Source: an uncultured delta proteobacterium (lineage in GTDB: Bacteria > Desulfobacterota > RBG-13-43-22). Taken from it: a DNA stretch of 64,000 bases. The position numbers were made by a program, and so were the translations under genes. This document shows positions 43,380-49,002 of this stretch, one piece after another (the stretch's first letter is position 1; each line of letters begins with the position of its first letter). The stretch lies in NCBI GenBank assembly GCA_963843145.1, contig CAWJJC010000028.1, forward strand, positions 416,001 to 480,000. The letters run 5' to 3'. Under the pieces are notes generated by a model, which made no database searches, was not told where the DNA came from, and saw only the letters and a program-made list of their open reading frames with translations.

Positions 43380-43488
43380 CGTCACCCCGGCGAAAGCCGG
43401 GGTCCAGAGCGGATGAAGAACACTGGATTCCGGCCATTCGACAAAGCTCATGGCCCTGAGCCAGCCGAAGGGCTTTCGCCGGAATGAC
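43380..43488. repeat. CGTC-type REP-like repeat with a nested TTCGAC..GCTCA element
   Basis: CGTCACCCCGGCGAAAGCCGGGGTCCAG..CTGGATTCCGG[CCATTCGACAAAGCTCATGGCCCTGAGCCAGCCGAAGGG]CTTTCGCCGGAATGAC. Confidence 0.8.
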
Positions 43489-43535: not shown

Positions 43536-43611
43536 TCCCCGGTAGCTCAGCCGGTAGAGCGGGTGGCTGTTAACCACTTGGTCGGCGGTTCGAATCCGTC
43601 CCGGGGAGCCA
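43536..43611 (+). tRNA. tRNA-Asn (GTT)
   Basis: TCCCCGG/CCGGGGA acceptor stem, GGTGG-CTGTTAA-CCACT anticodon arm, GTTCGAATC, GCCA end. Confidence 0.97.
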
Positions 43612-43655: not shown

Positions 43656-43696
43656 TTGCTCATGGCTATCGCCAGTTACAGGAATGTTTAATAAAA

Positions 43697-43756
43697 TAGC
43701 GTCGAATGAGCCTTGAGCCGGCCCGAATGGGAATGAGGGGCGAGTCGAAAGGCCAA
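43697..43756 (+). repeat. 60-bp direct repeat, copy 1, upstream of the GIY-YIG gene
   Basis: 54/60 identical to 44102-44161 by manual alignment. Confidence 0.92.
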
Positions 43757-43788
43757 GTTTCCACAAGGGTAAGATCAGGTACAAGACC

Positions 43789-44091
43789 ATGCCTGCTTGG
43801 TGTTATATTCTGCGTTTAAAATCAGGCAAGTTATACATTGGATCTACCTCAAACATTAATCAGCGATACCATGATCATTTAAGTGGTCGGGCTTGCCGAA
43901 CTACAAAATATGATCCCGCCATTCATTTTGTCTATTCGGAAGAATTTGAAAATTTAAAGATTGCCCAGTTACGAGAGGCACAAATAAAACGTTGGTCCCG
44001 GGCAAAGAAGGAAGCACTAATAGCTGCTGACCTTAATAAGTTAAACCAGTTGTCCAAAACAAAGTCAAAACAAGAGGGGCGTAAGGATTAG
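43789..44091 (+). CDS. Small GIY-YIG nuclease (UPF0213-like)
   Basis: WCYILR..LYIGST..RY.DH..G..TTKY..AQLREAQIKRWSRAKKEALI. Confidence 0.92.
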   Translation: MPAWCYILRLKSGKLYIGSTSNINQRYHDHLSGRACRTTKYDPAIHFVYSEEFENLKIAQLREAQIKRWSRAKKEALIAADLNKLNQLSKTKSKQEGRKD

Positions 44092-44101
44092 GTTATAAAT
44101 T

Positions 44102-44161
44102 TAGCGTCGAATGATCCTTGAGCCGGCCCGAGTAGTATTGAGGGACGAGTCGAAAGGCCAA
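44102..44161 (+). repeat. 60-bp direct repeat, copy 2, downstream of the GIY-YIG gene
   Basis: TAGCGTCGAATGATCCTTGAGCCGGCCCGAGTAGTATTGAGGGACGAGTCGAAAGGCCAA. Confidence 0.92.
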
Positions 44162-44255: not shown

Positions 44256-44292
44256 TTGACACCTTTTCTTCTTATTGTATGATATATCATAC
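44256..44292 (+). promoter_or_regulatory. Sigma-70 promoter with a perfect 16-bp palindrome over the -10
   Basis: TTGACA (44256)-16 bp-TATGAT (44278); GTATGATATATCATAC at 44277-44292. Confidence 0.7.
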
Positions 44293-44357
44293 GATGTACA
44301 GCTTGCTATGAATATTGATTGGACCAAATCTCTCAGGGGCTTGAAAGGAGAGCGGCT

Positions 44358-44570
44358 TTGAGTACCCCGGTCGACATACCCCGATTAGTCCGTGAGCTCC
44401 GAAAACGAACGGGGCTCACCCAGGAAAAATTCGCCGCCAAGCTCGGTGTGACCTTCCCGACCATCAACCGCTGGGAAAACGGTCGGGCCAAGCCGTCGCC
44501 GTTGGCCATGCAGAGGATTGAGGATCTGCTAGACAGCATGGGTGAGAAAGATGTTGAATTGCTGAAATGA
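44358..44570 (+). CDS. XRE-family HTH regulator
   Basis: LRKRTGLTQEKFAAKLGVTFPTINRWENGRAKPS; AAGGAG then TTG at 44358. Confidence 0.9.
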   Translation: MSTPVDIPRLVRELRKRTGLTQEKFAAKLGVTFPTINRWENGRAKPSPLAMQRIEDLLDSMGEKDVELLK

Positions 44571-44789
44571 CCTACTGGCGGTGGAAATTTGAGGTTATCC
44601 GGTGACTGAGTCGGGGAGAATAAGAAAATCAGACCTGAAGGCCTTTATTGCATTGGGAGAAGACAGCCGTCTTTAATCCAAGAAAGATGTGCAAGTGGGG
44701 CGGGTTTGTCGGTCACCAGCGCCAATTGAATGAAAAATATTATGGCGCCTCTTATGACGTCGAACAATTGGTAATCCGCAGAGGAGACA

Positions 44790-45995
44790 ATGATCTACAC
44801 AGAGAAACAACTGGAAATACTCCTGGCCGATATCGAATCGGATCTTGCCGAGCGAAAGGAATCCTGGAAGGGTGACGCCCCGGAGACCGGACGGCAGGCC
44901 GCTTGCGCATTTGCAAACGATTTGCCCGATCATCGACGGCCAGGGGTTCTCTTTATCGGAGCGAAGAACGATGGTTCACCCTCCCATTTGAACATCACAG
45001 ATGAACTGTTGCGTACCCTTTCCGATATCAGGACAGATGGCAACACCCTGCCGCCGACTTCAATCGTTGTTGAAAAACGAAACCTCAGAGGAGCCGCCAT
45101 GGCGGTCGTTATTGTTCTGCCTTCGGATACCCCGCCGGTCAGATATAAGGGAAGGATCTGGATTCGCACTGGGCCCCGCAGGTCTGTAGCTACTCCCCAG
45201 GAGGAACGCATCCTGAATGAAAAGCGCCGTTACCGGGATATCCCCTTTGACATCCAGCCGCTTCCATCCTGCCCCTTGTCGGCGCTCAGTCGGATTTTAT
45301 TCGAGCAGGAGTATTTGCCCAATGCCTTTGCTCCGGATGTGGTAGCAACCAACGAACGATCTTACGAACAGAAGCTCGCTTCGTGCCGAATGATCGCCGC
45401 CGTAGACGATCCTGTCCCGACGATACTGGGCGTATTGGTCCTGGGCGTATCGCCACGGGATTGGATCCCCGGTGCCTATACACAATTCCTTCGGATCGCC
45501 GGGACGGAGGTGAGCGATCCGATCCAGGACGAGTCTCTTATAGACGGTGCGTTGGGACAGGTTTTACGTCGCATAGACGAAAAGATCGATTCACATAATC
45601 GCCGCCAAGTCGACATTTCATCAGCCGATCGGGAAGTTCGCACGGCTCCCTATCCGCGTGTGGCGCTTCAGCAGTTGATTCGCAATGCGGTCATGCACCG
45701 CACCTATGAAAACACCAACACGCCTGTCCGCGTCCATTGGTTCGATGATCGTATAGAAATCATTAATCCGGGAGGACCGTTCGGTATTGTCACCCGGGAA
45801 AACTTCGGCCGCCCCGGTATTACCGATTATCGGAACCCAAATCTTGCAGATGCCATGAAAGTCATGGGTTTTGTTCAGCGTTTCGGCATAGGTATCCAGA
45901 CCGCAAGGGCGGAGATGAAAAAAAATGGCAATCCCGATATCGAATTTCAAATTGAACCGTTGACTGTACTCGCTACGGTCAGGAGGCGCCCATGA
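44790..45995 (+). CDS. Schlafen/AlbA_2 domain fused to a HATPase_c_4 (RecG C-terminal-like) domain
   Basis: ESDLAERK, CAFAND, GVLFIG; YPRVALQQLIRNAVMHR, DRIEIINPG, RNPNLA, VQRFGIG. Confidence 0.88.
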   Translation: MIYTEKQLEILLADIESDLAERKESWKGDAPETGRQAACAFANDLPDHRRPGVLFIGAKNDGSPSHLNITDELLRTLSDIRTDGNTLPPTSIVVEKRNLRGAAMAVVIVLPSDTPPVRYKGRIWIRTGPRRSVATPQEERILNEKRRYRDIPFDIQPLPSCPLSALSRILFEQEYLPNAFAPDVVATNERSYEQKLASCRMIAAVDDPVPTILGVLVLGVSPRDWIPGAYTQFLRIAGTEVSDPIQDESLIDGALGQVLRRIDEKIDSHNRRQVDISSADREVRTAPYPRVALQQLIRNAVMHRTYENTNTPVRVHWFDDRIEIINPGGPFGIVTRENFGRPGITDYRNPNLADAMKVMGFVQRFGIGIQTARAEMKKNGNPDIEFQIEPLTVLATVRRRP

Positions 45996-47014
45996 GTGTT
46001 CCGGTACTGACTTTTTTCAATAACAAAGGCGGTGTGGGCAAAACATCCCTCGTGTATCACCTGGCCTGGATGTTTTCCGAACTCAACCATACGGTTGTCG
46101 CTGTTGATCTTGATGCCCAAGCCAATTTGACCGCTGCCTATCTCGAAGAAGACGAGCTTGAGCAACTATGGGAAAACGAAAAAGATCCAACAACGATTTA
46201 CAGGGCCATAGAACCGCTCACCCAAGTAGGGGATATAGTTAAGCCCCGTGTTGAAAAAGTGACGCAAGGCCTGTATTTAATTCCCGGGGATGTGGCTTTG
46301 GCATCATTTGAGGATTTATTGTCTGAATCTTGGCCTAAGAGCATGGGTGACCCCAATTTGTATCGCTACTTTCGTATTCTGACGGCGTTCTGGCAAGTCG
46401 CACAAATGACGGCCCAACAGGTAGGCGCCGATATCATCCTGATGGATGTCGGTCCCAACCTCGGGGCTATCAACCGGTCGGCCTTAATCGCCTCCGATTA
46501 TGTTGCTATCCCCTTGGGAGCCGATCTTTTTTCTCTCCAGGGTTTAAGAAACCTGGGCCCGACGCTTCGTTCGTGGCGCGAAGGCTGGAAAAAACGGATA
46601 GATAATTGGAAATCCCCCGAATTTGACCTTCCCCAGGGGCGCATGAAACCGCTTGGTTATATCGTACAGCAACATAGTGTGCGGCTCAGTCGACCGGTCA
46701 AGGCCTATGATAAATGGGTCAACCGTATCCCGGCTGTTTATCATGAAGCGGTGCTTCAGAATTCCACCACCGCGGCTACCCCATCGCAAGATGAGGAATG
46801 CCTGGCCACATTGAAACACTTTCGCAGCCTGATACCGATGGGGCAGGAAGCGCGTAAACCCATATTTCACCTAACATCCGCCGATGGGGCCATTGGAAGT
46901 CACGCCCAGGCAGTCCAAGAGGCTTACAAAGACTTTAAACTACTTATGGAAAGATTGCTCGAGCGAATGGAAAGTATAACCCCTACCCTCCCAAACCTTG
47001 ACCCAAGGGTTTAG
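45992..47014 (+). CDS. ParA/MinD-family ATPase
   Basis: FNNKGGVGKT, VDLDAQANLT, DVGPNLG; ATGA overlap with the upstream gene. Confidence 0.92.
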   Translation: MSVPVLTFFNNKGGVGKTSLVYHLAWMFSELNHTVVAVDLDAQANLTAAYLEEDELEQLWENEKDPTTIYRAIEPLTQVGDIVKPRVEKVTQGLYLIPGDVALASFEDLLSESWPKSMGDPNLYRYFRILTAFWQVAQMTAQQVGADIILMDVGPNLGAINRSALIASDYVAIPLGADLFSLQGLRNLGPTLRSWREGWKKRIDNWKSPEFDLPQGRMKPLGYIVQQHSVRLSRPVKAYDKWVNRIPAVYHEAVLQNSTTAATPSQDEECLATLKHFRSLIPMGQEARKPIFHLTSADGAIGSHAQAVQEAYKDFKLLMERLLERMESITPTLPNLDPRV

Positions 47015-48100: not shown

Positions 48101-48347
48101 GGTTAGTATGAAAAATTAATATGAAAATAATATCAGGCGCCACCTTGGGCATTTGTCTTTGCCGTCATGCCGGACTCGATAAGCCTGCCCCGGCAGGTAG
48201 TAAGCCGGGGGCATCCAGGTCTTTTGAGGCTAAACCGTGGCCTGGATTTCGGATCGCGTCACGCCGCCGGCGTGACTTGTCCGGAATGACGAGCCGACTC
48301 GACCCGTTTAAAGCTTATTTTCATGCTTCGTAGGGGGCCATGGGGGG
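48101..48347. repeat. Family-A element ends enclosing a CGTC-type REP
   Basis: TAATATGAAAATAA...[CGTCATGCCGG...CCGGAATGACG at 48163-48291]...TTATTTTCATGCTTCG...CATGGGG. Confidence 0.75.
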
Positions 48348-48381
48348 TAGTGCGACATTACGGAGAATTTCAGGGGGATTA

Positions 48382-49002
48382 ATGAAGTTAAAAATCGGCG
48401 TTATGGGGCATGCCGGTTCGGATTTACCGGAAAGAGAGAAACATCTAGCCTTTGAGCTGGGAAAGGCCATTGCCGAACAGGATGCGATTACCATTACCGG
48501 GGCCTGTCCAGGCTACCCTTTGGAAGCGGCCAGAGGGGCGGCCAGTCGGGGCGGGCTGGTGATCGGGATCTCCCCGGGACTCAGCCTCTGGGAACACCTG
48601 CACAAATATCATTCTCCCACCGAGCATCATGATGTGCTGATCTTTACCGGCAGCGGACTGATGGGCCGAGAGGTGGTCAACATCCGCAGTTCGGATATTG
48701 TAGTCATTATCGGAGGAAAATCCGGGACCTTGGGGGAATTCTCTATTGCCTACGATGAGGGCAAGCTGATCGGGATCCTGATGGGCACCGGGGGCATTAC
48801 CACGGAAATCAAGCACCTGGTTCGGATCATCCGGAAAGATACCGGGTCCAAGGTGCTTTATGACCATGAACCCCGGCGGCTCATTCAACGGCTTTGGAAA
48901 TATTACCACCAGGAGCATTTCAAGCATCCCTCCTGTTTTCGTGACGATCAGCAATATGCAGAAACCGACGGAGAAACCCCGGACCGGTTAAAGGAGGGAT
49001 AG
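48382..49002 (+). CDS. LOG/SLOG-family (TIGR00725-like) nucleotide-binding protein
   Basis: IGVMG, ITGACPG, IGISP, GREVVNIRSSD, GGKSGTLGE. Confidence 0.85.
   Translation: MKLKIGVMGHAGSDLPEREKHLAFELGKAIAEQDAITITGACPGYPLEAARGAASRGGLVIGISPGLSLWEHLHKYHSPTEHHDVLIFTGSGLMGREVVNIRSSDIVVIIGGKSGTLGEFSIAYDEGKLIGILMGTGGITTEIKHLVRIIRKDTGSKVLYDHEPRRLIQRLWKYYHQEHFKHPSCFRDDQQYAETDGETPDRLKEG

What the first reader, a model, noticed from the sequence alone, without database searches (positions are those of the whole stretch)
44790..47014. Candidate anti-phage system: Schlafen/AlbA_2-ATPase translationally coupled to an orphan ParA-like ATPase
Seen: ATGA overlap; position just downstream of tRNA-Asn behind a nuclease and an XRE gene; no parB or replication gene nearby; ParA is 340 aa with insertions; the DNA looks more AT-rich than neighbouring core genes by eye. 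The AlbA_2 domain keeps the acidic ExxxxE motif. Known: Schlafen core domains are tRNA/rRNA endoribonucleases in antiviral immunity, and many defence systems pair an NTPase with a nuclease. Inference: a two-gene sensor or antitoxin plus RNase module. This is the best candidate for an undescribed system in the window.
Basis: partly seen in the sequence, partly recalled or inferred. Interest (0 to 1): 0.75.

Follow-up and report, generated by a model that had tools for sequence, protein, structure and literature searches.

The report
Schlafen RNase paired with ParA switch
These two overlapping genes, a probable tRNA-cutting enzyme and a ParA-type ATP switch, travel together across many bacterial phyla and most likely form an anti-virus module that a recent preprint predicted but nobody appears to have tested.

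Summary
The pair is real: a 401-aa Schlafen–GHKL-ATPase ("Schlatpase") overlapping by ATGA a 340-aa ParA-like ATPase, with intact nuclease and P-loop motifs and no parB found. It is a conserved unit. 79 of the 80 best ParA relatives in genomes of 20 phyla have the Schlatpase directly upstream, the two trees agree (r=0.85), and the genes fused repeatedly. Some copies sit inside Hma and DISARM operons, but 66 of 80 show no defence neighbour and enrichment is modest. tRNA, XRE and GIY-YIG neighbours are local, not part of the unit.

It is not undescribed. A bioRxiv preprint of 22 Oct 2026 (Li, Burroughs, Aravind) lists ParA plus a histidine-kinase-fold/Schlafen fusion among predicted "ParA-effector" immune systems, from computation only; my searches found no experiment.

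Most likely the ParA gates a tRNA-cleaving Schlafen oligomer to arrest infected cells (inferred, about 0.55). Added here: two subtypes. This one keeps the nuclease lysine but has Gln for the GHKL catalytic Glu; the other has the reverse.

The parts
44790..45995 (+). Schlafen (AlbA_2) RNase domain fused to a GHKL-fold ATP-binding domain (Schlatpase), 401 aa. Nuclease motif E16/E21/K23 and AFAND box; GHKL N-box has Q295 in place of the usual catalytic Glu, with N299, H303, R304 and the G366/G368 box
   Evidence: Pfam; conservation in 61 linked homologues; subtype table; alignment to 3LMM, which has E at the matching position
45992..47014 (+). ParA/Soj-like ATPase, 340 aa, with intact deviant Walker A (K12, K17), D39/D41/Q43, Walker B D152, helical insertions and conserved basic residues R231, R234, K275, K289
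   Evidence: Pfam; AlphaFold model pLDDT 95; best fold match 3PG5, then Soj/ParA; conservation in 75 homologues
45992..45995 (+). ATGA start/stop overlap joining the two genes
   Evidence: Sequence; same type of overlap in 58 of 67 intact related pairs
44256..44295 (+). Strong sigma-70-like promoter match (TTGACA-16-TATGAT) with a palindrome over the -10 region; candidate XRE operator. Local feature that may drive the pair in this genome
   Evidence: 11 of 12 consensus match; palindrome I13; function inferred
44358..44570 (+). XRE-family HTH gene (longest ORF from 44319; likelier start TTG 44358 behind an AAGGAG site). Local neighbour, not a conserved part of the unit
   Evidence: Pfam HTH_3 E 2e-15; among 80 loci the only homologue next to a pair is an HTH fused to HmaA in L051, plus an HTH gene two ORFs upstream in L009
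43789..44091 (+). Small GIY-YIG nuclease gene between two 69-nt direct repeats (43688-43756, 44093-44161); a separate small insertion, not part of the unit
   Evidence: GC 0.40; no hit in the 80 related loci
43536..43611 (+). tRNA-Asn gene upstream of the inserted genes; not a conserved neighbour
   Evidence: only 6 of 80 related loci hold any tRNA gene and none abuts the pair

Best explanation
A mobile two-gene conflict module, most likely anti-phage, in which the ParA-type ATPase gates a Schlafen tRNA nuclease. Shown here: the genes are a co-inherited unit with conserved catalytic residues. [quoted passage not shown] In this subtype the GHKL base is Gln, so the Schlatpase probably binds ATP but hydrolyses it poorly, leaving the ParA as the only cycling ATPase. 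I lean to ParA as sensor/activator over plain antitoxin (roughly 60:40), because most Schlatpases live without a ParA and the pair fuses 1:1.
For: 79 of 80 loci linked over 20 phyla. Tree distances correlate r=0.85 (1000 permutations, maximum 0.24) and 22 of 29 strong Schlatpase splits recur in the ParA tree. 16 of 28 longer ParA-clade proteins are Schlatpase-ParA fusions, 10 nearly full length, needing 7 changes on the tree. E16 and E21 are kept in 60 of 61 (one row gapped); ParA K12 and K17 in 74 of 75, D39, D41, D152 in 75 of 75. The pair lies between hmaA and hmaB in L010 and L051 and between drmMI and drmA in L049; L045, L050, L061 show the same Hma-type neighbours. Distant relatives of the ParA (27-34% identity) sit next to SIR2 genes, in the accessory slot of a Pf prophage and between cI and N of a P22-like phage. 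Literature: bacterial Schlafens cut tRNA in defence (PMC13056530); GHKL-driven tetramer and tRNA cleavage in Schlafen-pAgo (10.64898/2026.05.29.728809); predicted ParA-effector systems.
Against: No activity has been measured. 66 of 80 loci have no defence-type Pfam domain in the two nearest ORFs on each side; near versus distal enrichment is 25 of 285 against 4 of 150 ORFs (p=0.015, ORFs not independent) and 9 against 3 by paired locus (p=0.15); no TA enrichment (8 of 285 against 3 of 150). HisKinase-type Schlafens were among the groups tested alone in E. coli and were not among the two that protected. The 10 T/E-subtype proteins lack the motif lysine, so nuclease activity may not be universal. 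The Schlatpase is broken or absent in 10 of 80 loci that keep the ParA, which fits an antitoxin as well. No PADLOC system model fits either gene over its length.
Confidence: 0.55

Rival explanations
1. ParA is itself the first-line effector: it binds and coats invading phage or plasmid DNA, and the Schlafen protein is a back-up suicide effector released only if that fails (the model proposed in the Li, Burroughs and Aravind preprint).
For: Preprint sections 16 and 41. Basic residues R231 (67 of 75), R234 (73), K275 (69), K289 (74) are conserved. A stand-alone ParA-like prophage gene, GiPD474, protects Salmonella (PMC12724215 passages; kinship to this ParA not tested). ParA persists where the Schlatpase is broken. 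Some distant relatives have no obvious effector neighbour.
Against: This ParA clade is almost never without the Schlatpase (79 of 80) and fuses to it repeatedly. The ParA is well conserved (57% mean column identity), close to its partner's 61%, not fast-changing as a direct invader-binding surface might be. DNA binding was not tested.
Confidence: 0.2
2. A selfish toxin-antitoxin or dormancy cassette with no phage trigger: the Schlatpase is the toxin, ParA the antitoxin, and the unit spreads by inserting between housekeeping genes.
For: Most copies are lone insertions between core genes such as purA, ffh, gyrA, metK, uvrA. Schlatpase broken or absent in 10 of 80, ParA broken in 1 (biased, since loci were picked by ParA score). 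ParA/Soj plus HEPN dyads were predicted as TA modules in PMC3710099 (passages). Patchy spread: 25 phylum changes against a minimum of 15.
Against: 58.6% of 103,533 prokaryotic Schlafen proteins carry this GHKL domain, most with little else, so they need no dedicated antitoxin as a rule. Repeated fusion and toxin-first order are unusual for addiction modules (general knowledge). Copies are embedded in Hma and DISARM operons.
Confidence: 0.18
3. A non-conflict role: a DNA-binding regulator positioned by an orphan ParA, or a partition function, as database names ('putative DNA binding domain', 'chromosome partitioning protein', 'RecG') suggest.
For: Source names; ParA fold.
Against: No ParB among 285 nearest ORFs or in the window scan; NCBIfam partition models score far below cut-off; no close relative on plasmids (best 35% and 27% identity); nuclease acidic residues invariant; no stable genomic position.
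Confidence: 0.05

Closest known systems
[quoted passage not shown]
   Same: Same two components in a two-gene unit; ParA has the PriB1/ConB1 marks (leading Asn and Val in Walker A, Gln two residues after DxD); related ParAs pair with SIR2 as the paper says.
   Different: The text read gives one clause and no experiment; it does not mention gene fusions for this variant, the Q/E and K/T subtypes, or embedding in Hma/DISARM. I could not compare with its example accession. Its model makes ParA the DNA interceptor; I favour ParA as the gate.
Schlatpase supradomain and Schlafen-pAgo RzAgo (Kuzmenko et al., bioRxiv 10.64898/2026.05.29.728809; seen: abstract, sections 5, 9, 10)
   Same: SLFN (PF04326) plus GHKL (PF13749), E-x4-(D/E)-x-K motif, Schlafen box, N-box Asn.
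   Different: No Argonaute sensor; a ParA stands in its place. Gln replaces the Glu whose mutation (E314A) stops hydrolysis but not ATP binding in RzAgo; the match rests on the E-x3-N spacing, not on a direct alignment to RzAgo.
pSlfn-HisKinase proteins (Perez Taboada et al. 2026, PMC13056530; seen: section 6 and passages)
   Same: Commonest prokaryotic Schlafen architecture (34%), same catalytic motif.
   Different: Tested as single genes from Enterobacterales, not reported protective; ParA partners are not mentioned in the main text.
RemAIN of Gifsy-1 (seen only through passages of PMC13043305 and PMC12724215 and the preprint's section 14, which describes such a system without that name in the text read)
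   Same: ATPase plus tRNA anticodon nuclease in one defence unit, experimentally shown.
   Different: Three genes, HEPN nuclease, separate immunity protein. That RemA is ParA-like and that the preprint's Salmonella example is RemAIN is my recall; no sequence comparison was made.
ParA/Soj-HEPN (MAE_18760) dyads (Anantharaman et al. 2013, PMC3710099; passages)
   Same: ParA-like ATPase paired with an RNase, predicted TA-like.
   Different: HEPN, not Schlafen-GHKL, effector.

Membership tests
ParA-effector system (iii), ConB1 | ParA-clade ATPase: KGGxGK[ST] Walker A, DxD sensor, Walker B Asp | tested here: met
   K12-G-G-V-G-K17-T, D39/D41, D152; 74-75 of 75 homologues; definition from section 10
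ParA-effector system (iii), ConB1 | PriB1/ConB1 marks: Asn opening Walker A, Val within it, Gln two after DxD | tested here: met
   N11 73, V15 73, Q43 75 of 75; definition from section 12
ParA-effector system (iii), ConB1 | Conserved coupling to a histidine-kinase-fold plus Schlafen protein, without ParB | tested here: met
   79 of 80 loci; no ParB among 285 nearest ORFs
ParA-effector system (iii), ConB1 | Falls in the paper's ParA-effector branch, with its example accession | not testable with these tools
   Figure 4D and the preprint's supplement cannot be seen
ParA-effector system (iii), ConB1 | Enrichment in multicellular taxa | not tested
   80 loci are mostly Pseudomonadota 26, Thermodesulfobacteriota 10, Actinomycetota 8, Acidobacteriota 8, Cyanobacteriota 5; no test run
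Schlatpase / pSlfn-HisKinase | SLFN_AlbA_2 followed by HATPase_c_4 | tested here: met
   atlas neighbours all carry PF04326, most also PF13749
Schlatpase / pSlfn-HisKinase | E-x4-(E/D)-x-K nuclease motif and Schlafen box | tested here: met
   E16, E21, K23 and A40-F-A-N-D44 in the window protein; K23 is Thr in 10 of 61 relatives
Schlatpase / pSlfn-HisKinase | GHKL catalytic Glu four residues before the Mg-binding Asn (E314/N318 in RzAgo) | tested here: not met
   Q295 here and in 51 of 61 linked proteins; Glu in 10 and in 3LMM. Lowers 'is an ATP hydrolase', not 'binds ATP'
Schlatpase / pSlfn-HisKinase | ATP-driven oligomer and tRNA cleavage | not testable with these tools
   Needs biochemistry
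ParABS partition system | Adjacent parB and replicon or origin context | tested here: not met
   partition models below cut-off
Named system in PADLOC-DB 2.0 | Full-length match to a system's protein models | tested here: not met
   Only partial hits: GHKL part to pAgo-associated models, Walker A region to PDC-M28B at 1e-5
RemAIN | ATPase, immunity protein and HEPN nuclease in three genes | tested here: not met
   No third conserved gene in the clustering of 1175 ORFs from 80 loci; effector is Schlafen

The most novel reading that the evidence does not exclude
The pair divides the labour between two unrelated ATP switches. In the major subtype the GHKL domain is a natural hydrolysis-dead clamp that would hold the Schlafen nuclease assembled, and the ParA is the timer that loads or releases it on sensing foreign DNA. 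The minor subtype, with Glu restored and the nuclease Lys replaced by Thr, runs the logic differently. ParA would also be the missing trigger that explains why lone Schlafen-HisKinase genes showed no defence.
Probability: 0.2. Interest if true: 0.7.

Novelty: new member of a known kind. Interest (0 to 1): 0.42.

Why it matters
Schlafen-GHKL is the commonest bacterial Schlafen architecture, yet the papers I read show function for it only inside an Argonaute fusion. A compact two-gene or natural single-chain version with a defined partner makes its trigger and regulation directly testable, and it would be an early experimental test of the proposal that ParA ATPases were recruited as immune switches. 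The idea is already in a preprint, so the value lies in the test and in the subtype and fusion details, not in the discovery.

Tried and rejected
Complex prediction of the two proteins with ATP and Mg: no answer, score 0.01, controls not folded; not used either way; one ParA copy only, so a dimer-dependent interface was not represented. AlphaFold of the Schlatpase: pLDDT 56, too poor to use, no fold search run on it. Plasmid and phage searches found no close relative of either gene (ParA 21 plasmid and 9 phage records, all under 35% identity; Schlatpase none at 1e-20, 125 records at 1e-4, the 40 listed under 28%); the Schlatpase was not searched in phages. A third conserved gene was sought and not found. 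tRNA-linked integration, XRE and GIY-YIG as fixed parts: rejected. P0361 looked like a fusion but its middle does not match the GHKL domain, probably a frameshift artefact; left out of the tree. The K/Q versus T/E match is one split on the tree, a single event, so it is not independent evidence of co-evolution; the T/E group is not one clade in the ParA tree. Reverse linkage (Schlatpase without ParA) could be probed only by a proxy: 43 of 119 Schlatpase hits share a contig length with a ParA hit, against 1.7 by chance; truncated lists make this a lower bound. Literature searches found no experimental study of the pair; the library lacks most subscription papers. PMC13552941, PMC12111858 and 10.1101/2024.01.29.577857 were checked by term search and held nothing on it. 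Metagenome and viral contig context stayed unchecked, as did DefenseFinder.

Full report
Observation. The window holds two same-strand ORFs, 44790-45995 (401 aa) and 45992-47014 (340 aa), overlapping by ATGA. The first is Schlafen AlbA_2 plus HATPase_c_4, the second a ParA-type AAA_31 protein. They lie downstream of tRNA-Asn, a GIY-YIG gene bracketed by 69-nt repeats and an XRE gene with a strong promoter match, between a pyruvate:ferredoxin oxidoreductase-type operon and a transporter gene (named from their translations). Composition is only mildly atypical: GC 0.539 and 0.504 against a median of 0.551, third-position GC 0.571 and 0.524 against 0.645. No ParB domain was found in the 46 window ORFs.

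The pair is a unit. 79 of these 80 have a Schlatpase homologue directly upstream; the exception, L039, has an IS110 gene there. They come from 20 phyla. 58 of 67 intact pairs keep a 4-base start/stop overlap. Tree distances of the two proteins correlate at r=0.85, and 22 of 29 strongly supported Schlatpase splits recur in the ParA tree (32 of 64 overall); phylum changes 25 times on the tree against a minimum of 15 and a shuffled mean of 36, which fits transfer with some vertical signal (FastTree only). Among 28 longer proteins of the ParA clade, 16 are Schlatpase-ParA fusions, 11 carry an unnamed C-terminal domain and one a HerA domain. The ten near-complete fusions need 7 changes on the tree; some may be sequencing slips, but sister pairs P0391/P0394 and P0403/P0260 are fused together and P0260 was seen on 7 contigs. 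No third gene is conserved. These counts are conditional on the ParA; the reverse was probed only by a contig-length proxy (43 of 119, chance 1.7).

Catalytic anatomy. The ParA folds confidently (pLDDT 95) and is closest to the uncharacterised 3PG5, then to Soj/ParA. Its signature Lys, Walker A Lys, DxDxQ and Walker B Asp are kept in 74-75 of 75 homologues, as are several basic residues of the C-terminal half. The Schlafen glutamates are kept in 60 of 61. Two subtypes appear: 50 proteins, this one included, have the motif Lys with Gln at the GHKL catalytic position; 10 have Thr with Glu; one row is gapped. This is one split on the tree, so it is a description, not a statistical test. In RzAgo the corresponding Glu is needed for hydrolysis but not for ATP binding or oligomer formation; the correspondence rests on E-x3-N spacing and on 3LMM.

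Neighbourhood. With a crude ORF caller, 25 of the 285 nearest ORFs (two per side) carry restriction or defence-type domains, in 14 of 80 loci, against 4 of 150 distal ORFs (150 of 177 picked were scanned). Fisher p is 0.015 by ORF but 0.15 when paired by locus; toxin-antitoxin genes are not enriched. The classification is mine, and ambiguous helicases and Ter-type genes were left out. The positive cases are telling: the pair sits between hmaA and hmaB (L010, L051) and between drmMI and drmA of a DISARM operon (L049). Most copies, however, are lone insertions between housekeeping genes. tRNA, XRE and GIY-YIG neighbours are local. The Schlatpase is broken in 9 loci, absent in 1 and cut by a contig end in 1, whereas the ParA is broken in 1; selection on the ParA biases this. 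Distant ParA relatives pair with SIR2 genes or occupy prophage accessory slots.

Mechanism. The likeliest reading is a ParA-gated Schlafen tRNase acting in abortive defence (0.55). Only linkage and residue conservation are shown; ATP-driven assembly, tRNA cleavage, DNA sensing, physical contact and anti-phage action are inferred from Schlafen-pAgo, other bacterial Schlafens and ParA biology. Against it: modest island enrichment, and HisKinase-type Schlafens were not among the protective genes when tested alone. Rivals are ParA as the primary DNA-coating effector (0.2), a selfish toxin-antitoxin cassette (0.18) and a housekeeping role (0.05).

[quoted passage not shown] The window's ParA meets the motif marks that the paper gives for that clade. 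I read the abstract and sections 10-13, 16, 41 and 42; its figures and supplement were not visible and may already cover the fusions or subtypes. Eight literature searches found no experiment on the pair, and PADLOC 2.0 has no model for it.

Verdict. A real, tightly conserved and widespread module, already predicted computationally and apparently still untested: a new member of a known kind. Interest 0.42. The subtypes and natural fusions are useful handles for the first experiments.

Noticed in passing
Proteins P0242-P0390 (50%-identity cluster representatives; 92 aligned in A1): Only 40 of 92 divergent relatives of the ParA keep both Walker A lysines (K17 is Thr in 18) while D39 and D41 are invariant. 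Could be decayed orphans or a programmed inactive ParA; P0241 holds two ParA copies in one chain. Context unknown.
   Followed up: partly
Proteins P0392, P0393, P0395, P0396, P0398, P0407, P0410-P0413, P0415 (676-678 aa): The same ParA fused to a C-terminal domain of about 330 aa with no Pfam or PADLOC match in P0392; by eye it has a restriction-endonuclease-like P-D...E-x-K pattern (recalled motif, not tested). P0322 is ParA-RES and P0408 ParA-HerA.
   Followed up: partly
window 43688-44161: AT-rich 100-aa GIY-YIG gene bracketed by 69-nt direct repeats (86% alike); a further palindromic repeat at 43381-43488 with a partial copy at 48266-48290. Looks like small repeat-associated mobile elements.
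   Followed up: no
window 44617-44690: A short stop-interrupted frame between the XRE gene and the Schlatpase resembles the start of another Schlafen/AlbA_2 gene (recalled motif; no hit in the fetched loci), possibly a remnant of an earlier occupant of this slot.
   Followed up: partly
L003 4896-7910 and L002 3423-7898: Distant ParA relatives in methyltransferase-ParA-SIR2 (near tRNA-Asn genes) and helicase-ParA-SIR2 operons, three-gene forms of the ParA-Sirtuin theme.
   Followed up: no
L006 3509-5062 and L005 4067-5020: ParA-like genes in prophage defence slots: with a DUF3024 gene between cI and N of phage ST160/SE1, and alone in the accessory region of a Pf prophage.
   Followed up: no
L073 11037-13129 and L078 11037-12470: T/E-subtype pairs directly upstream of a Ter-type stress cluster (C-C bond lyase TIM barrel, StiP/PELOTA).
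   Followed up: no
window 48340-49002: Stand-alone SLOG cluster 4 protein two genes downstream of the pair; no link to the pair seen in related loci.
   Followed up: no
L007-L066: No tRNA gene at all in these 60 loci, fewer than expected for random chromosomal DNA; may reflect assembly of metagenome-derived genomes.
   Followed up: partly
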